64,000 nt of DNA from a virus (Duplodnaviria; Caudoviricetes), in the IMG/VR virus record IMGVR_UViG_2786546882_000003, positions 36,063 to 100,062 of that record, one strand, 5' to 3'. This document shows, in pieces, positions 37,775 to 63,253 of this stretch. The translations under genes were made by a program, and so were the position numbers. The notes below the pieces were generated by a model that ran no database searches, was not told the origin of the DNA, and saw nothing but the letters and a program-made list of their open reading frames with translations. How positions within the stretch are numbered: the stretch's first letter is position 1; every line of letters starts with the position of its first letter.

Positions 37775-37949
37775 CCGATCCGGCGAGTATCAGCAGCGGA
37801 AGAACCTCTCCGGCTATGACAGGATCAAATCTCCGGTCTTCCCTTCTTCCAGCTCCATACTTGAGCGAGTTGTGATGGTAACTAAACAGTATCCACGCAG
37901 CAACAATCGCAATAAAAAGCACGACAAGACGACGTACTAGGGCCATCAT
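37737..37949 (-). CDS. possible small two-TM membrane protein
   Basis: Two hydrophobic segments; fills the gap between the two large + strand genes. Confidence 0.3.
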   Translation of the reverse strand: MMALVRRLVVLFIAIVAAWILFSYHHNSLKYGAGRREDRRFDPVIAGEVLPLLILAGSAIYCLRADPEGS

Positions 37950-40900
37950 GGTTGATCTTCTCCGAGCTGCTAGGCTAGGCACTACGCCAGCCATCCAGGA
38001 CAACGAAAAAAAGCAGCAGCGACTAACTCCGATCAGGGCGGCTACTAACCGCGCTGAGCCAGATCAGTCTATCTTATCAAGTCTTGCTAGTACAGGCTTG
38101 AGTGGACTGGCGAAAGTCGGGAACTTTTTGGACCTTCCTGGTTCGGTCGTGCGCGATGTCAGCACCTGGCTCCCAGGCGGAATCGAAGCGCAGAATCCAG
38201 TCGATCAGTTTCTTTCCCCATTCACTTCAGAGAACCGTGTCTCCGGCGAAGACATGCTCCAGTCAGCAGGTCTTGCTGGCGAGAACACTTGGGGCGGATT
38301 GGCTGGTGGAATCGCAACCGAAATCGCGCTTGACCCTTTGACTTATTTGAGTTTTGGCGCGTCGGCTGTCGGAAAAGCTGGAACAGCCGCTGGCAAGGCT
38401 GGCCTCACTAAGAACGCCAAGTCGGTCGCGAACGAACTTGCTGGCCGAACTCTAGGCAAGGAGTCAGGCAAAAGGCTTGGTGCTACCAGCGCGAGGCAAA
38501 CGCTAACGCCGCGCAATCTGATTGACGCTGCTGCGGATCCAGCGGAAGCGATGAAGCGATTCAAGGTGGCTGGTGGCACTGATGCGATGCTCGATGAGAA
38601 GCTCGGTGGAGTTGCGAAGTTTTCTGTTCCATTCTTGTCGAAGCGATACGGAGATACTGTCCCCGCCCTGCGCGAACGAGTCCTGGGGACTACCGACCTG
38701 ACGCCTTCGCAGCTCGGCGCTAAGCCTTGGATGAAGGGTGGCGATGGCCCAAGCGGTCCCGATGCAGGTAGTGCCGCAAAGCCAAAGTCACCTCTGGATC
38801 CGAATGCTGACACTGGCCTGAAGAACCCGACGCCTGAAGAGTTCTCGGCTATCTCTCCGAACCACGCTCGGTTCAACCAAGAACTAGATGGTCTTCAACA
38901 GAGTGGTATTCTTGACGACGCTGACTCTGAGATCCTTCGCGGAATCTTTAGCCAATCAGACCTTGGCGGATTCGATCGAGTTTACTTCCGTCCAGTCAAA
39001 GAGATCTCGCCTGAGGCTACTCCCGAGATCGTGTCTGCATACGGCGCGAATGTTCCAGAAATTGGCGGTGCTGCAACAAAGACTCCCGATGGCGGATTTG
39101 ATATCCAGCTTTCTCAAAAGGCGCTGGCTGATGGAAACTACGTCGACACCGGAATTGACACTCTCGTTCATGAGATCGGCCATGCTTTTTTGGAGACAAC
39201 GAAGAAGCCACAGGGCGAGGCTGGCGTTGATGTTGTTTCTGAGTTCGACAATCTGATCAAAGACGGGACTCTCGGTCGATACTTCTCCGACAACTACGGC
39301 CCTGAGAAGGCAGCATACTTCGGACAAAATCCGCACGAGGCATTCGCTCAACTGTTCGCCGACTCGGTTATCAAGCGCAAGGGCCAAGAGATGCCCAAGC
39401 CAATCGAGTCATTCTTGGGCAAGGTGCGCAAGTTTGTTTCAGACATGCTCTCAAAGGTCCTTGGAAACAAGCAGCTGAGCGGTGAGGCAAGGCTGCGAAC
39501 CGATGCGATGATTGACTTGGTCGGAGGATTTATCGGTCCAGATCAATACAAGTCGATTATCGGAAAGGCTGACTCTGCATCGTCCAAACTGGATTTCTAC
39601 AAGCCAGCTACGAGAAAGATGCCTGGCATCGAGCCTGATGCCACTGGGATGTTCAGTCAAGTCGCCAGATCTCTTGACGCCATATTCCGCGAGTCGAGTT
39701 CGCTTCCTGCTGACCAGATGCTTGCTAGGCTGAGAAAAATGCCTGGAGTCAAAGAGGAGGAGATTGCTGACCTTGGTCTTGACAAGCTCAGTGGAAAGCG
39801 ACTCAGTCGAAATGACATCACTGACCACCTCAGCAAAAACATGCTCACCATGGAGGAGGCGATCAATACTGGAGACCGCGCTGGTTTCAGTGATCTTGCA
39901 GTTCCTGGTGGCGATGATGGAACTTACCGAGAACTTATCCTCAAGGCCAATGCAGGTGGAAAGCGAATTGAGGGCGGCGCCGATACTCACTGGATGGGCG
40001 ATGATTCGATTGCGCATATCCGGCTTGACGATGTTTCGCTTGCGAACGGAGAGAAGATTCTGCGAGTCAATGAGATCCAGAGCGATTGGATCCAGGGGCT
40101 GCGCAAGTTCGGAACGAAAACCGAAGATTTGCAAAGCGAAGCGAAGTCCATCAAGAAGGAAATGTCTGGCAACGCAGTTGAGCTTTTTCTCACAAGGCAG
40201 CAGATCAAACAGCTTGGAGAAAACGCACCCCCAGAGTTGCTTGCAAAAGAACAGTCATTGACTCAGAGTGTCGAGCAAGCAAGCTCTCGCATAACTCAGA
40301 TCGGAAAGATGCCAGCCGATGCCCCGATGAAGAAGTCGTGGGACAGCATGGCCATCAAAAAGATCTTCGACTATGCAGTCGCAAATGGGTATGACGGAGT
40401 TTCATTCGTCGACGGCCAGGATATCGCAAAGGTTGTTCAAGGTCCTGCTGATGCACTAAGTGGCTTCTATAACAAGGTTCAAACTCTCGCCGGAAAAATT
40501 GCAAAGAAATACGGAAGCGGAAAGGTATCGAACGAGAAGCTGGCCGGTCAATTCATCAACGACAGCGAGGAATTGCGCCGTGGTGTGACGTTCCCTGTCA
40601 CGGACGAGATGCGAAACACGATTGGCTCAGGTGGACAGCCGAGATACAAACCAGCGGAAAAAGTGGCCGAAGCCGCCAGCGCTGCTAAACAAGGAGCAAC
40701 TAAGGCGGCATCGTACGCAAACGACATGGCAAGGAGAGCGTTGTCGTCAGTCGGTGAGCTTGCGCTAGATAAAGATCTTGGTGCTGCTGTCGGCGCCACA
40801 ATGGACACTGTTGGAGGATTCTTCAAAAACTCTGCGCCAGTGAGATACCTTCGCGCCACCATCACCCCAGAGATGCTTGGCGCTTCAACCGAGCTTGGGC

Positions 40901-43746
40901 AGGAGATCGGCCAAAAGCGATTCGAGGCTTTGCAAGAGACGAAATATGAGATGCGGAAGCGAATGTTTCCGATCGCAAAGCAATTCCTCCAGAGCGAAGC
41001 ACTTGACTACGAAAAGCTCGTCGAAAAGCTTGGCGATGCGAAGAAGGCAAGAGGCGTTCTTAACACGAATTACCTGGAGGTGACTCGCTATCTTGAAGGT
41101 GGCACGGAACTTCTGGCTAAGGGCCAATCTCCAAAACTACCCGACGAACTGAAGCCGCTCATTCCTGCGATGGATGACATTCGCACTGCGCTGGATGAGA
41201 TCAGGCAGACCGAAATCAACAGCGGCCTCAAGTCTCCTCAGCTGGACGACATGTTCATCGACTACTTGCCTCGCCAGTTACAAGGGTTCCCGAACGACAA
41301 GTCGACTGGTTCTGGGAACTTAGGCAAGTTGTTTGAATTCGGAACTCCTTACCAGAAGCAACGCAAAGAATTTTTGCGAAATCTTCCAGGCGGAACATCC
41401 TCGATCAACAAACTGTCTCTTGATCCGCTTGTTTCGGGAATCGCCCATAGCTACCCTGGGTCTAAGATACCGGACGATGTCCTTCAGGAAGCAAAGAAGT
41501 ACCTGCGTGAATCATACGGCGGTGGTCAAGCAGGAAATAGAGAGCGAGATAGTATCTTCCATCTTGACATGGATGACAACAACAACGACTTGGATAAGCT
41601 TGCTCGGTGGATCACTGGTCTAGATCCAAGACATGCTGAACTCCAGGTTCCTGTATTCAAGCTTGATCCTGTTCAAAACGTGATGAACCGAATCGAATCT
41701 GGGCTTGCAGCGTCTTCGGCTGCTGATTTTACCACTGCGATGATTGCAAAAGCGGCTACCGAAGCTGGCGAAAATATATCAGATCCGAACTTGTACGATA
41801 TCCTGGTGGATAAGTTTGCAGTCGACGGCGCGGACGGCGACAAGATCAAGGAAATCGTCATCGGAAAGATGGGAGAAACCTTTCAGACTAAGCGTTTCGC
41901 GATGCAAGATGCTGCTGACAAGCTTGCGAGATCTCAGGTCGATGAATTGATTGCGAAATCGAATGTTACTGAAGATGGGATCTTGTTTGACGAGCCAGTC
42001 GTTGGTTCGATCGGTACAAGCAAGGCTAAGTTCCTCGGTGTCAAGGGTGATCAAGTTATCTATCAGTCTTCTGGCAAGAAAGGCTATGCTCCGCTTGACT
42101 CCATCGGTGGAAAAACTGTATCAGAAAACGATGTTCTCAAACAGTTTTCTATTCCTCAGCAACTGAGTGATGCGACATTCAGGTATCTCAAGGGGTTTAC
42201 TTCGCCTGAGGCACCCGATGCTATTCGCAAAGCACTGGGTCAAATCACTAGCCTATATAAGAGTCAGTTGACGATTCCTTGGCCAGCGTTCCATGTGCGC
42301 AACCTGCTGAGTGGTCAGTATGCAAACTGGCTGAACAACGCAACTGACCCTCGATATTCCGGTCCTCGCGCGATGGTCGAGCCGATTCGCGATGCGGACA
42401 GAGTTTTCAGAGGAGAATCCATACCTGACATCCTGAGCATTCCAGCGATTAAGGAGCTGGGGATAACCGATGAGTCTCAGGCTATGGAGTGGCTGCGCCA
42501 GGAGATCTTTGCAAACAAGCTTGTCGACTTTGGCCAAGGGATTTCAGCAGAGGCAGCTGCGAACAACTTGTCAGATATTCGCTCTCAGGTTGTCGGCCAA
42601 GTTCCGAAGAAGCGACGAGACATACTCGCTAAGTTGCCTCCGAGGCCGATTGGCGCATCGAAAGCGCAATCGTTCAATCCGTTGGCCGGAGCAGGAATCC
42701 TTGGTGCGACAGAGGATACATTTGGTCCGTATCGCTGGGGTCGGCAGGTTGGTGCATACACCGAGGGAATGAACCGCATTGCTCCTTTCATAGCATTTCT
42801 TCGGCAGGGGATGGACTCGCAAGAAGCTATGCGTCGAGTTCTTGCTGCACAGTTCGACTACAGCAAGATGACTCCGGCAGATCGTGACATCAAATTGTTG
42901 ATTCCGTTTTATGGATTTTCGCGAAACGTCCTGCCGTTCGTCGTCGGCAATCTTGTTCGCGATCCAGGCGGCGCGTTAGGGATGACAGTTCGCGCCACAA
43001 GAAACGCATCGGCAAGTCAGCCGTTGCCAGACTATCTTGCTGGCCAAACTGCAATCCCGTTTGGTACGCGAGGTGATGTGTCGGAGGGTAATTCGTCGTT
43101 CCTGACAGGATTTGGATTGCCGCACGAAGACACTCTTGGTCTGGCTGGTCTAGTAACAGGCGATCCAGCAGATGGCTTCAGGAATATTTTGTCTCGGATG
43201 AATCCGCTTGCCAAATCGCCGCTTGAATTGGCGTTTGGTGAGTCTACTTTCTTTGATGCCCCTGGAGGTGGGAGAGCACTGAAAGATCTTGATCCATTGG
43301 TTGGCCGTATTGGATCGAATATCAAAGACTTGGCGACTGGGTCTGATACCATGCGTGCTCAACCAGTCATGGGATCTCCATTACTAGAGCATGCGTTAGC
43401 TAACAGTCCGTTCAGCCGCGTCTTGACGACAGCGAGAACTATTACCGATCCAAGAAAGTGGAAGAACCCACTGAAACTTGGCCTCAATCTAGGCACAGGG
43501 ATGAGAGTGACCGACGTAAGCGAAAGCTCATGGGACGCAACAGTCAGCGACTTGATCTCAGAGAGAATGAGAGAGCTAGGCAGTCGCGATTTTGTCAGGA
43601 GCTATTTTCCGCAATATGCGCAAGAAGCAATGACAGACGAACAGCTTTCAGAAGCAAACTCACTGGAAGAGTTGATGAACTGGTTAGCGAATAGAGCTAA
43701 ACAGCGCAAGGCCGATCGAGAGGCTAAAGCCAATGCGCAAAACTAA
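37948..43746 (+). CDS. giant internal virion / polyvalent-type protein (1932 aa) with zincin domain
   Basis: TLVHEIGH...HEAFAQLF; GVKEEEIADLGL, YRELIL, AHIRL, RVNEIQSDW, DAPMKKSW; C-terminal PAFHVRN, FDYS, IPFYGF. Confidence 0.75.
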   Translation: MVDLLRAARLGTTPAIQDNEKKQQRLTPIRAATNRAEPDQSILSSLASTGLSGLAKVGNFLDLPGSVVRDVSTWLPGGIEAQNPVDQFLSPFTSENRVSGEDMLQSAGLAGENTWGGLAGGIATEIALDPLTYLSFGASAVGKAGTAAGKAGLTKNAKSVANELAGRTLGKESGKRLGATSARQTLTPRNLIDAAADPAEAMKRFKVAGGTDAMLDEKLGGVAKFSVPFLSKRYGDTVPALRERVLGTTDLTPSQLGAKPWMKGGDGPSGPDAGSAAKPKSPLDPNADTGLKNPTPEEFSAISPNHARFNQELDGLQQSGILDDADSEILRGIFSQSDLGGFDRVYFRPVKEISPEATPEIVSAYGANVPEIGGAATKTPDGGFDIQLSQKALADGNYVDTGIDTLVHEIGHAFLETTKKPQGEAGVDVVSEFDNLIKDGTLGRYFSDNYGPEKAAYFGQNPHEAFAQLFADSVIKRKGQEMPKPIESFLGKVRKFVSDMLSKVLGNKQLSGEARLRTDAMIDLVGGFIGPDQYKSIIGKADSASSKLDFYKPATRKMPGIEPDATGMFSQVARSLDAIFRESSSLPADQMLARLRKMPGVKEEEIADLGLDKLSGKRLSRNDITDHLSKNMLTMEEAINTGDRAGFSDLAVPGGDDGTYRELILKANAGGKRIEGGADTHWMGDDSIAHIRLDDVSLANGEKILRVNEIQSDWIQGLRKFGTKTEDLQSEAKSIKKEMSGNAVELFLTRQQIKQLGENAPPELLAKEQSLTQSVEQASSRITQIGKMPADAPMKKSWDSMAIKKIFDYAVANGYDGVSFVDGQDIAKVVQGPADALSGFYNKVQTLAGKIAKKYGSGKVSNEKLAGQFINDSEELRRGVTFPVTDEMRNTIGSGGQPRYKPAEKVAEAASAAKQGATKAASYANDMARRALSSVGELALDKDLGAAVGATMDTVGGFFKNSAPVRYLRATITPEMLGASTELGQEIGQKRFEALQETKYEMRKRMFPIAKQFLQSEALDYEKLVEKLGDAKKARGVLNTNYLEVTRYLEGGTELLAKGQSPKLPDELKPLIPAMDDIRTALDEIRQTEINSGLKSPQLDDMFIDYLPRQLQGFPNDKSTGSGNLGKLFEFGTPYQKQRKEFLRNLPGGTSSINKLSLDPLVSGIAHSYPGSKIPDDVLQEAKKYLRESYGGGQAGNRERDSIFHLDMDDNNNDLDKLARWITGLDPRHAELQVPVFKLDPVQNVMNRIESGLAASSAADFTTAMIAKAATEAGENISDPNLYDILVDKFAVDGADGDKIKEIVIGKMGETFQTKRFAMQDAADKLARSQVDELIAKSNVTEDGILFDEPVVGSIGTSKAKFLGVKGDQVIYQSSGKKGYAPLDSIGGKTVSENDVLKQFSIPQQLSDATFRYLKGFTSPEAPDAIRKALGQITSLYKSQLTIPWPAFHVRNLLSGQYANWLNNATDPRYSGPRAMVEPIRDADRVFRGESIPDILSIPAIKELGITDESQAMEWLRQEIFANKLVDFGQGISAEAAANNLSDIRSQVVGQVPKKRRDILAKLPPRPIGASKAQSFNPLAGAGILGATEDTFGPYRWGRQVGAYTEGMNRIAPFIAFLRQGMDSQEAMRRVLAAQFDYSKMTPADRDIKLLIPFYGFSRNVLPFVVGNLVRDPGGALGMTVRATRNASASQPLPDYLAGQTAIPFGTRGDVSEGNSSFLTGFGLPHEDTLGLAGLVTGDPADGFRNILSRMNPLAKSPLELAFGESTFFDAPGGGRALKDLDPLVGRIGSNIKDLATGSDTMRAQPVMGSPLLEHALANSPFSRVLTTARTITDPRKWKNPLKLGLNLGTGMRVTDVSESSWDATVSDLISERMRELGSRDFVRSYFPQYAQEAMTDEQLSEANSLEELMNWLANRAKQRKADREAKANAQN

Positions 43747-43910: not shown

Positions 43911-44002
43911 AAAAACCTTGACTTATCTTACCATGTCGTACCATAACGTAACCCAACCCAACGGAACATGCTTTAACTTAACAAAGCAAAACTCGCGTTA
44001 AC
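43911..44002 (-). ncRNA. pentamer guide unit E (17 triplet+NN repeats, tail GTCAAGGTTTTT)
   Basis: - strand: gttAA cgcGA gttTT gctTT gttAA gttAA agcAT gttCC gttGG gttGG gttAC gttAT ggtAC gacAT ggtAA gatAA gtcAA ggttttt. Confidence 0.8.
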
Positions 44003-44010
44003 CGGCGATA

Positions 44011-44490
44011 CTACTTATTGAAAAGACTAAGTGTCTCTCCAATAGAAATCTCACTTGTAGACTTCTGGACCTTTGTTGCGATCTTTTTCGCAGATGTCTT
44101 CTTTGAAAACAGCGATATAGCTCCCATCTGCGCCGAAGCTACCACATGCTGTCTCTTGTAATCTTCCGGAAGAGAGTCGAACTTAACGACACTCAGTTTG
44201 TCGAGAGTCCTTTTTGACGCCCGAAGTATCCTAACTCTGTCGCTTTCGGTTGTGTCGACAATCTCCTCGTCATCGAGTCGCTTTAGCCCAACCCCTCGCT
44301 CTACCCCGAAGACAATACCACATTCGAGCAGTAAGCTTCGCCTCGCCGTGACTAGCGATGAAGATGCATGCTTACGCACGTCCCGGCCAATGGCCGTGCT
44401 AATTTCATCGTATGTTATTAACTGACCGACACTGGCAGCTTTGAGCATAGACTCAATAATTCGAGTGTCGGATGATTTTTCGTGGATCAT
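44011..44490 (-). CDS. accessory protein of the RAMP/pentamer locus, winged-helix-like N-terminus
   Basis: GQLITYDEISTAIGRDV...VFGVERGVGLKRL; embedded between units D and E. Confidence 0.65.
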   Translation of the reverse strand: MIHEKSSDTRIIESMLKAASVGQLITYDEISTAIGRDVRKHASSSLVTARRSLLLECGIVFGVERGVGLKRLDDEEIVDTTESDRVRILRASKRTLDKLSVVKFDSLPEDYKRQHVVASAQMGAISLFSKKTSAKKIATKVQKSTSEISIGETLSLFNK

Positions 44491-44523
44491 GGTGCATCTT
44501 CATCCTGAAAGGATCGTTATCCG

Positions 44524-44616
44524 AAAAAACCTTGACTTGTCTTGGCGCACTGCAACCAAACGAAACATAACGCAACAGGACCAAACAAAACGAGCCCTAA
44601 CGAAACGCAATGCGTT
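44524..44616 (-). ncRNA. pentamer guide unit D
   Basis: - strand: aacGC attGC gttTC gttAG ggcTC gttTT gttTG gtcCT gttGC gttAT gttTC gttTG gttGC agtGC gccAA gacAA gtcAA ggtttttt. Confidence 0.78.
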
Positions 44617-44621
44617 GAAAT

Positions 44622-44704
44622 AAAAAACCTTGACTTGTCTTACCAAAGCGCAACTCAACTCAACGAAACCAAACCCAACCTGACCCAACGAAACTAAACG
44701 CGAC
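44622..44704 (-). ncRNA. pentamer guide unit C
   Basis: - strand: gtcGC gttTA gttTC gttGG gtcAG gttGG gttTG gttTC gttGA gttGA gttGC gctTT ggtAA gacAA gtcAA ggtttttt. Confidence 0.8.
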
Positions 44705-44725
44705 TAATTGTATTGTTGTTGTGTT

Positions 44726-44813
44726 AAAAAGCCTTGACTTACCTCTCCGTGTCACAACGCAACTCACTCCAACGCAACCATACTCAGCACAACGCATCTA
44801 AACACAACGAGAA
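44726..44813 (-). ncRNA. pentamer guide unit B
   Basis: - strand: ttcTC gttGT gttTA gatGC gttGT gctGA gtaTG gttGC gttGG agtGA gttGC gttGT gacAC ggaGA ggtAA gtcAA ggcttttt. Confidence 0.78.
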
Positions 44814-44825
44814 TCAGTGCCAAGA

Positions 44826-45383
44826 CTAAACCCAGTCAACATCCTCAACGGAAAATCGACCGTAATAGCCGTTGTTTCTTGGGCGGAATCTGCCAACTCC
44901 GATGAACGAACCGGCGTCACGAAGGTGCTCAGTGAATACGTCTTTCGTGATAATCTCGTCAAGCACTAGGAACTCAACGACACCATCCCAATTCTGAACA
45001 AGCGGAAAGCACTTCTCTACTCGCTTGCTTCCTCCGCGCCGACCGTCGCTTGGAACGTGCAGCCATTCTCCGTGGATGTCGTCGATCTTTGTGTCAAGAA
45101 CGAGCGGCTCGACCACAAGAATCCCGGCTTCAAAGTGCTTTGTAAATGTTGACTTTCCTTTGCCTGGGATCTGGATTGATTTGTACTTTGCGGCTTCGGC
45201 CAGGCAGTTCTTAAAGCACATTGGTGGAATGAACAAATTGCCTTCTTTTGTAACGTGGCAGCGTTCTTTCCACACTCGCTTTTCAAAGTCTGCGTGAGTC
45301 TCGTCGCGACTCTTTTCGGACTGAATGAATCGGCCTTGGGAGTACGGGCTTGCACTCTTCAGGCGGCAGATTGCTTTCTTCAC
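44826..45383 (-). CDS. stand-alone RAMP/Cas7-like RNA-binding protein (Vipr-like), 185 aa
   Basis: N-terminal strand ICRLKSASPY, FIPPMCFKNCLAEAA (RAMP yiPg.s.Kg.l motif), C-terminal Gly-rich loop AGSFIGVGRFRPRNNGYYGRFSV; GTG start inferred. Confidence 0.75.
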   Translation of the reverse strand: MKKAICRLKSASPYSQGRFIQSEKSRDETHADFEKRVWKERCHVTKEGNLFIPPMCFKNCLAEAAKYKSIQIPGKGKSTFTKHFEAGILVVEPLVLDTKIDDIHGEWLHVPSDGRRGGSKRVEKCFPLVQNWDGVVEFLVLDEIITKDVFTEHLRDAGSFIGVGRFRPRNNGYYGRFSVEDVDWV

Positions 45384-45463
45384 AGGTATTCTCGCATCTT
45401 CAAGTATCACAGCAGACGAAAGGCACTGCTGACTGCCTTTGTGCTCATGCACATGACAAGACA

Positions 45464-45491
45464 ATCATACCCAAGTTGCGGAAGACGTCAA
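45464..45491 (-). promoter_or_regulatory. sigma70-type promoter of the RAMP gene
   Basis: - strand TTGACG, 16 nt, TATGAT. Confidence 0.7.
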
Positions 45492-45502
45492 CCAAAATCC
45501 AC

Positions 45503-45532
45503 AAAAAAATCCCAGGCTTGGGACCTGGGATT
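45503..45532 (-). terminator. intrinsic terminator after guide unit A
   Basis: - strand AATCCCAGG-loop-CCTGGGATT then TTTTT. Confidence 0.75.
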
Positions 45533-45624
45533 AAAAACCATGACATACCGTGACAGAACTCATCGTACTTTAACACAACGCATCTTGACGTATCAGGACG
45601 TGCTACGCCGTACGTCGACGTGTT
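45533..45624 (-). ncRNA. pentamer guide unit A
   Basis: - strand: aacAC gtcGA cgtAC ggcGT agcAC gtcCT gatAC gtcAA gatGC gttGT gttAA agtAC gatGA gttCT gtcAC ggtAT gtcAT ggttttt. Confidence 0.75.
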
Positions 45625-63166: not shown

Positions 63167-63181
63167 GTTGCTTCCATTGAG

Positions 63182-63253
63182 CAGGGTGCTAGGGAATCGA
63201 ACCCCAATTGTCCGCTCAGAAGGCGGTTGTCTTATCCATTAGACGAGCACCCC
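63182..63253 (-). tRNA. tRNA-Arg(TCT)
   Basis: Acceptor GGGGTGC/GCACCCT, D-arm GTCT/AGAC, anticodon loop CTTCTGA, T-arm TGGGG TTCGATT CCCTA; one mismatch in the anticodon stem; no encoded CCA. Confidence 0.85.

What the first reader, a model, noticed from the sequence alone, without database searches (positions are those of the whole stretch)
44622..44704. Unit C decodes antisense to a second site in the giant-protein gene (43003-43035)
The reverse complement of the NN series, tail excluded, is AA GC TC TC GA CA CC CT CC GA TA, compatible with N-A-S-S-D/E-Q-P-L-P-D-Y. The gene reads aac gca tcg gca agt cag ccg ttg cca gac tat (NASASQPLPDY): 8/11 dinucleotides and 18/22 bases, with one mismatch being synonymous Leu (CTn vs TTG). 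This guide is antisense to the mRNA while unit E is sense. Targets in both orientations argue for dsDNA rather than mRNA recognition (inference).
Basis: partly seen in the sequence, partly recalled or inferred. Interest (0 to 1): 0.88.

Follow-up and report, generated by a model that had tools for sequence, protein, structure and literature searches.

The report
VIPR guide RNA matching phage's giant gene
Unit C is a guide RNA of a phage-borne VIPR system, an RNA-guided DNA silencer described in 2026 preprints. Read two bases per codon, it spells a motif of the phage's own giant virion-protein gene but matches the resident copy only 8/12, so it is a new example of a known system, probably aimed at rival phages.

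Summary
Read on the minus strand, 44645-44704 is 12 pentamers (G-U-Y + NN), followed by a constant tail at 44622-44644. The skipped base is always the codon wobble position.

This is more than chance:
- It is the single best site in the whole 3.56 Mb assembly.
- 3 of 5000 permuted guides do as well inside the giant gene.
- A codon-position-1-2 profile built only from 43 distant homologues puts the guide at the same residue (1686), 23 bits above the runner-up.
- At two of the three self-mismatches the guide carries the family's commonest state.

The system is already known. It is VIPR (bioRxiv 10.64898/2026.04.26.720920), which has the 1-nt skip rule, wobble skipping, targets on both strands and dsDNA binding. 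The neighbouring 185-aa gene matches the SUSP1 Vipr protein (PDB 36pp) and folds as a Cas7-like RAMP.

The self site is below the published 80% target threshold. I found no better-matching relative anywhere; the nearest giant-gene homologue is only 47% identical. The rival-allele reading is therefore an inference.

Earlier scan notes on this same window had already named VIPR.

The parts
44622..44704 (-). vrRNA 'unit C' (5' end near 44704, 3' U-run at 44622-44627)
   Evidence: In-register alignment of the five units with a shared 3' tail. It has the same architecture as the vrRNAs of 46 related loci. It has no stable fold of its own, z = -0.25.
44645..44704 (-). Guide tract of 12 pentamers G-U/C-Y + NN. 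NN series 5'->3': GC TA TC GG AG GG TG TC GA GA GC TT
   Evidence: The scaffold triplets are GTC/GTT, with GCT in the last unit.
44622..44644 (-). Constant 3' tail: GGT-AA, GAC-AA, GTC-AA, then GG + U6
   Evidence: Conserved in all five units of the window. Related loci carry the form (GKY-AA)2-4 GG U-run.
43003..43037 (+). Resident (self) site in the giant gene, codons N-A-S-A-S-Q-P-L-P-D-Y-L. It matches the guide in 8/12 units and the skipped base is codon position 3
37948..43746 (+). Giant virion-type protein gene (1932 aa). Two of its relatives carry PF18760 (ART-PolyVal)
   Evidence: The window's copy has no Pfam or PHROG hit.
44826..45383 (-). vipr (185-aa RAMP/Cas7-like protein)
   Evidence: PDB 36pp 'SUSP1 Vipr protein', E = 6e-4. 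LESphi2 homologue, E = 3e-16. AF2 model with pLDDT 88; top Foldseek hits are type VII Cas7, Csm3 and gRAMP, E = 6e-7.
44011..44490 (-). Candidate accessory (vap-like) gene, 159 aa
   Evidence: It lies next to vipr on the same strand. E = 9e-5 to the gene downstream of vipr in phage LESphi2. No significant BLASTP match to SUSP1 Vap1.
   Evidence: 11/16 units at 41358-41405, the unique best hit in the assembly; the next best is 9.
41358..41405 (+).
   Evidence: Homologous sites in distant relatives reach 8/16.
45533..45624 (-).
   Evidence: It is followed on the minus strand by a terminator-like hairpin at 45532-45508, then a promoter-like site at 45491-45464.

Best explanation
Unit C is a genuine guide RNA (vrRNA) of a phage-encoded VIPR system.

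Shown for SUSP1 in the 2026 preprints and inferred here by homology:
- Vipr protomers polymerise along the RNA, one per pentamer.
- They bury the constant triplet (here G-U-Y) and present each NN dinucleotide.
- The filament pairs with one strand of double-stranded DNA, skipping every third base, and forms an R-loop/triplex that blocks transcription.

Shown here:
- The 12 NN of unit C spell, in codon register, the motif [N/K]-A-S-S-[D/E]-[Q/H]-P-L-P-[D/E]-Y-A.
- This motif is a version of residues 1686-1697 of the giant virion-protein family.
- The guide would pair with the coding (+) strand.

The resident gene matches only 8/12 units. That is below the >=80% level at which natural VIPR targets are called, and one difference is a silent Leu CTN->TTG change.

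Inferred: the guide is aimed at the allele carried by related, competing phages, and the resident copy is protected by its four mismatched dinucleotides.
For: - Locus membership: Vipr hit to PDB 36pp, to LESphi2, and a RAMP fold.
- vrRNA architecture is shared with 46 related loci and with the GGY/NN arrays of SUSP1, LESphi2 and DSL-LC04.
- The match is non-random: unique best by units of 7.1 M positions in the assembly; 3/5000 permuted and 0/132 foreign guides reach 8 in the gene; window-wide P is about 0.014-0.03.
- It is in frame, with the skip at the wobble position.
- A profile built from 43 relatives without self puts the 11-unit guide at residue 1686 with 23.1 bits, against -0.2 for the next site; 0/300 permutations reach this.
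- At self-mismatch units 5 and 8 the guide has the family's commonest state (GA in 19/43, CT in 14/43), while self has rare states (2/43 and 5/43).
- A second guide of the same array hits the same gene on the other strand.
- Published precedent: targets on both strands, wobble skipping, no self hits >=80%, and self scores lower than scores to relatives.
Against: - I found no sequence that matches the guide better than the resident gene. Exact-pattern scans of IMG/VR, JGI metagenomes and 185,579 species genomes found none in a giant-gene homologue; the only hit, L099 (9/12), is out of frame, in no such homologue and within chance expectation. A scan of 401 genomes of the host's order with <=3 mismatches also found none.
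- The closest relatives (43-54% identical around the site) are compatible with at most 7/12 units.
- By raw count, 8/12 is at noise level once 1.25 Mb is searched.
- The 5'-most unit (GC) matches 0/43 relatives.
- The profile test is not fully independent of the self match.
- Expression, strand and ends of the RNA are not shown. The mismatch tolerance of this Vipr clade is unknown.
Confidence: 0.7

Rival explanations
1. Chance resemblance. Unit C is a real vrRNA, but its true target is an unrelated sequence not present in the collections, and the 8/12 self site means nothing.
For: 8/12 is reached at other, meaningless periods when 1.25 Mb is scanned. The window-wide P is only about 0.014-0.03 for this guide alone.
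Against: The site is the unique top hit by units of the whole assembly, yet it lies 1.6 kb from the guide, in the gene already hit by another guide, and in codon register. The guide carries the family-majority states at two self-mismatch positions.
Confidence: 0.12
2. Deliberate weak self-targeting. The two partial sites (8/12 and 11/16, on opposite strands) let VIPR dampen or time expression of the phage's own late giant gene.
For: Two guides converge on one resident gene at similar partial identity, 67-69% of units. VIPR silences from either strand.
Against: Published systems show no self hits >=80%, and disturbing NN pairing abolished silencing. The guide's mismatches carry family-consensus states, which fits an origin or aim outside the resident allele.
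Confidence: 0.08
3. Obsolete guide. It once matched a rival or ancestral allele and is now drifting without a live target.
For: No >=80% target was found in any collection.
Against: Unit C has the cleanest scaffold of the array, with 11 of 12 triplets G-T-Y, and an intact tail. The collections hold no close relative of this phage at all, so absence of a target is uninformative.
Confidence: 0.1

Closest known systems
Type II VIPR of Escherichia phage SUSP1 and of Pseudomonas prophages (bioRxiv 10.64898/2026.04.26.720920, .720927, 10.64898/2026.10.15.759431)
   Same: - A small RAMP protein (Vipr) next to a small accessory gene, flanked by ~80-100-nt RNAs.
- Each RNA is made of 9-16 pentamers (constant triplet + variable NN) and a constant 3' tail.
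- Targets are read with one base skipped per unit, and the skip falls at the codon wobble position.
- Sites lie on either strand, and self sites fall below the target threshold.
   Different: - The scaffold triplet is G-U-Y here (83% U at position 2) instead of G-G-Y. Across this Vipr clade position 2 floats between G and U.
- The tail is a run of (GKY-AA) units + GG + U-run, with no predicted pseudoknot.
- Residues aligned to SUSP1 R138, D177 and W178 are F, R and F.
- The apparent target family is the phage's own giant virion gene rather than a satellite or a prophage regulator.
- The accessory gene shows no BLASTP similarity to SUSP1 Vap1.
Class 1 CRISPR-Cas backbone (Cas7/Csm3 filaments on crRNA)
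   Same: RAMP fold; the top structural matches are type VII Cas7, Csm3 and gRAMP. One protomer binds per short RNA period, with thumb-driven base flipping.
   Different: There is no repeat-spacer array, no other cas genes and no contiguous spacer. The period is 5 nt with only 2 paired bases, against 6 nt with 5 paired.
Phage-encoded CRISPR arrays and solo vrRNAs aimed at related phages
   Same: Guides directed at homologues of the carrier's own genes, with the self copy escaping through mismatches.
   Different: Here the rival allele has not been found, so the aim is inferred from family consensus states only.

Membership tests
VIPR | Vipr protein: a single-RRM RAMP with G-loop and thumb | tested here: met
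   phmmer hit to PDB 36pp 'SUSP1 Vipr protein', E = 6e-4, covering the G-loop region. BLASTP E = 3e-16 to the LESphi2 protein that sits beside GGC/NN arrays. AF2 model pLDDT 88; Foldseek top hits are Cas7-type RAMPs, E = 6e-7.
VIPR | vrRNA made of 9-16 tandem pentamers with a conserved GGY (or related) triplet and hypervariable NN | tested here: met
   12 units with G-T-Y (one GCT) and variable NN. Position 2 is U rather than G. The published variants listed are NNNGG, YNNNG and NNNNG, so YNNGU is a further variant. I could not see fig. S17.
VIPR | Invariant 3' tail after the repeat tract | tested here: met
   The tail GGTAAGACAAGTCAAGG + U-run is shared by the five units and by related loci. 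It has no pseudoknot or significant fold, unlike SUSP1.
VIPR | One-nucleotide skip rule (NN x NN x) for target recognition | tested here: met
Its 8/12 site at period 3 is the assembly's unique best by units and is significant within the giant gene. The support is statistical only; no binding assay was done.
VIPR | Skip base coincides with the codon wobble position in coding targets | tested here: met
   43003 is a codon start of the 37948-43746 ORF, so NN = codon positions 1-2. The same holds for the unit E site.
VIPR | Adjacent accessory (vap) gene | tested here: inconclusive
   A 159-aa gene lies on the same strand. E = 9e-5 to the gene downstream of vipr in LESphi2, but nothing to SUSP1 Vap1 by BLASTP. 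No Pfam or PHROG hit.
VIPR | Natural-target criterion used in the literature: >=80% NN match | tested here: not met
   The self site is 8/12 units (67%) and 18/24 bases (75%). No external site with >=10/12 was found. This is a criterion for calling a target, not for membership of the system.
VIPR | vrRNA is expressed and co-purifies with Vipr; the RNP binds dsDNA and silences transcription | not testable with these tools
CRISPR-Cas | Repeat-spacer array with cas adaptation/effector genes | tested here: not met
   No direct-repeat/spacer array and no Rfam CRISPR repeat in the window. The RAMP gene is the only match to Cas proteins among the eight ORFs I scanned.

The most novel reading that the evidence does not exclude
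The window belongs to a large, undescribed VIPR clade. It has more than 3100 metagenomic Vipr homologues. Scaffold position 2 is free to be G or U, and the tail is a run of GKY-AA units instead of a pseudoknot. In this clade, guides are written against the carrier's own essential virion gene family. The partial self sites (8/12 and 11/16, on opposite strands) might then be functional, for example as a graded brake on the resident late gene, rather than merely tolerated.
Probability: 0.1. Interest if true: 0.6.

Novelty: new member of a known kind. Interest (0 to 1): 0.35.

Why it matters
The finding independently re-derives, on an uncultured ~100-kb phage contig from a metagenome bin, the gapped two-of-three code published for VIPR in 2026. 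It extends that code to a clade that uses G-U-Y instead of G-G-Y scaffolds.

If the rival-allele reading is right, phages use VIPR against close kin by spelling a conserved protein motif of an essential virion gene. The carrier then protects itself with a few changes, some of them silent. That gives a concrete, testable self/non-self rule for a PAM-less system. It adds no new principle beyond the preprints.

Tried and rejected
Readings I considered before finding the literature, and dropped:
- (AAC-NN)n small RNAs made from the + strand, driven by the TTGACT-like box. The box is in fact the reverse complement of the vrRNA tail.
- A TRAP-like ring protein wrapping 11-13 triplet repeats.
- Phage T4-type primase GTT sites.
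- A DGR template rich in AAC.
- Quintuplet decoding. This is excluded because the two self-matching units would need opposite coding strands.

Searches that found nothing:
- Exact target patterns of 11, 10 and 9 units in IMG/VR, JGI metagenomes and the species-genome collection.
- One 9/12 hit (L099) is out of frame, lies in no giant-gene homologue, and is within chance expectation.
- The pattern with <=3 mismatches in 401 genomes of the host's order.
- The giant protein in 202 genomes of the host's family, and by exact peptide words in IMG/VR and the species genomes.
- Shorter fragmentary homologues; the best is 45% identical.
- 48 metagenome loci of distant giant-gene relatives carry no G-K-Y arrays.
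- 46 related VIPR loci carry no giant-gene homologue.
- An all-against-all search with 50 guides from the related loci and the window gave no excess at period 3 in 1.25 Mb, which is too little sequence for this test.

An idea that failed:
- I thought the residue changes aligned to SUSP1 D177/W178/R138 might explain U at scaffold position 2. The G-loop and thumb are identical in clade members that use GGC.

Full report
WHAT IS THERE. Between the end of a + strand virion module (giant ORF 37948-43746, 1932 aa) and a block of minus-strand genes lie five non-coding units. On the + strand each looks like an A-run + CCTTGACTT box followed by about 12-16 pentamers AAC-NN. On the minus strand each reads as (G-T-Y + NN)n followed by a constant tail, GGTAA GACAA GTCAA GG + U-run. 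Unit C (44622-44704) has 12 guide units at 44645-44704, with NN series GC TA TC GG AG GG TG TC GA GA GC TT, and a tail at 44622-44644.

THE OBSERVATION. In + strand orientation the series is AA GC TC TC GA CA CC CT CC GA TA GC. The gene from 43003 reads AAC GCA TCG GCA AGT CAG CCG TTG CCA GAC TAT CTT. Position 43003 is a codon start, so NN falls on codon positions 1-2 and the skipped base on the wobble position.

IS IT CHANCE?
- Permuting the unit order, 15 of 2000 eleven-unit series reach 8 anywhere in the window.
- With free trimming of the ends, P = 0.014 (units shuffled) to 0.021 (bases shuffled). For the 13-unit series, 55 of 2000 permutations reach 8.
- Across the whole 3.56 Mb assembly (7.1 million positions), this is the single best site by units: 8, with the next best 7 at 18 sites. 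It is one of four sites at 18/24 bases. Yet it lies 1.6 kb from the guide.
- Restricted to the giant gene, 3 of 5000 permuted guides and 0 of 132 twelve-unit pieces of foreign guides reach 8.
- As a caution, once 1.25 Mb of mixed loci are scanned, 8/12 also turns up at meaningless periods. The raw count alone would not carry the claim.

EVIDENCE FROM RELATIVES.
- The giant protein has only distant homologues, the best at 47% identity. Fragments are no closer.
- From 48 metagenome loci I read the homologous codons in 43.
- The 3' half of the site, (D/E)-(Q)-P-L-P-(D/E)-Y, is a family motif. Two loci match guide units 5-11 consecutively.
- At self-mismatch unit 5 the guide's GA is the commonest family state (19/43), while self AG is found in 2/43. 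At unit 8 the guide's CT is found in 14/43, while self TT is found in 5/43.
- A position-specific profile of codon positions 1-2, built without the resident gene, places the 11-unit guide at residue 1686. It scores 23.1 bits there against -0.2 for the next of 537 positions, and 0 of 300 permuted guides reach that score. This test shares information with the self match, because conserved columns count twice. The gain at the mismatch positions is independent.
- No relative matches better than self. The best DNA match is 7 units, and P0002 is compatible with at most 7/12 at the protein level.

WHAT IT IS. An earlier scan note on this window named VIPR, and I checked that lead.

Three 2026 preprints describe Viral Interference Programmable Repeat systems:
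- The system is a small RAMP protein (Vipr), an accessory gene, and vrRNAs.
- Each vrRNA has 9-16 pentamers (GGY + NN) plus a constant 3' tail.
- Targets are read with one base skipped per unit, usually the wobble base, on either strand.
- The RNP binds dsDNA and forms an R-loop triplex, causing transcriptional silencing.
- There is no PAM.
- Natural targets are called at >=80% NN match, and there are no self hits at that level.

The window fits this description:
- The 185-aa ORF 44826-45383 (-) has one hit in the PDB, 36pp 'SUSP1 Vipr protein' (E = 6e-4, G-loop region).
- It matches the LESphi2 protein that sits beside GGC/NN arrays at E = 3e-16.
- It folds with pLDDT 88 into a RAMP whose best structural matches are type VII Cas7, Csm3 and gRAMP.
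- The 159-aa gene 44011-44490 resembles the LESphi2 neighbour weakly (E = 9e-5) and shows no similarity to SUSP1 Vap1.

The guide strand is the minus strand, for three reasons:
- It is the same strand as vipr, as in 45 of 46 related loci.
- The constant tail lies 3' of the repeat tract on that strand.
- A hairpin terminator and a promoter-like site lie on that strand.

Expression itself could not be checked.

HOW THIS CLADE DIFFERS.
- The Vipr has more than 3100 homologues in metagenomes, up to 76% identical.
- In 46 IMG/VR loci, the share of U at scaffold position 2 ranges from 0 to 96% (83% in the window), and G and U sometimes mix within one guide.
- The G-loop (GxGRFRPRNNGYYGRF) and the thumb motif (KCFP) stay the same across these loci.
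- The tail is two to four GKY-AA units + GG + U-run. Unit C has no significant fold (z = -0.25).
- Residues aligned to SUSP1 R138, D177 and W178, which read the two guanines, are F, R and F here. This may underlie the relaxed position 2, but it does not separate GGC users from GUC users.

MECHANISM AND AIM. By homology, Vipr protomers coat unit C one per pentamer and present 12 dinucleotides. These pair with the + (coding) strand of a giant-gene allele, skipping each wobble base, and block transcription. Opposite orientations exclude a purely mRNA-directed mode for at least one of the two guides.

The resident site is at 67% of units (75% of bases), below the published threshold. One difference is a silent Leu CTN->TTG change. 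The guide's states at two mismatches are family-majority states. I therefore read the guide as aimed at a related phage's allele, with the resident copy escaping (confidence 0.7).

The rivals are a chance resemblance (0.12), an obsolete guide (0.10) and deliberate weak self-regulation (0.08).

The target allele itself was not found in IMG/VR, JGI metagenomes, 185,579 species genomes or 401 genomes of the host's order.

VERDICT. The system is already known (VIPR), so this is a new member, with a G-U-Y scaffold and a simple tail as clade-level variations. Interest is moderate to low.

Noticed in passing
L052-L097 (IMG/VR loci) and window 43911-45624: A large Vipr clade (more than 3100 metagenomic homologues, 46-76% identical). 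In its vrRNA scaffold, position 2 floats between G and U (0-96% U per locus, sometimes mixed within one guide). The protein's G-loop and thumb motifs do not change. The tails are (GKY-AA)2-4 + GG + U-run rather than a pseudoknot.
   Followed up: partly
window 45464-45532 (-): Directly after the degenerate vrRNA upstream of vipr there is a 10-bp hairpin + U-run (45532-45508). It is followed by a sigma-70-like TTGACG/TATGAT site (45491-45464). This suggests that this vrRNA and vipr are separate transcription units.
   Followed up: no
window 37948-43746 (+): The giant protein has no Pfam or PHROG hit. Two of its 47%-identical relatives (P0001, P0002; 2207-2731 aa) carry PF18760 (ART-PolyVal), so the family belongs with the 'polyvalent' virion proteins, and this copy lacks that domain.
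   Followed up: no
G000 contig C155 (window = 36063-100062): The 100,062-bp contig is the largest of the assembly. The window has 53.4% G+C against 57.7% for the bin. No giant-gene homologue occurs in 201 other genomes of the host's family. It looks like a free phage contig binned with a MAG, so the host assignment is uncertain.
   Followed up: partly
L099:1667-1692 (-): This is the only IMG/VR sequence that matches nine consecutive units of guide C (9/12 in all). It is preceded by two in-frame stop codons and lies in no giant-gene homologue. One or two such hits are expected by chance for an 18-base pattern.
   Followed up: yes
window 44622-44644 and the other four tails: On the + strand the tail reads AAAAACCTTGACTT, which mimics an UP element plus a -35 box. 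This could mislead promoter scans and sequence-only readers into placing the RNAs on the wrong strand.
   Followed up: yes
window 63181-63253 (-): tRNA-Arg (TCT), the only Rfam/ARAGORN hit in the window.
   Followed up: no
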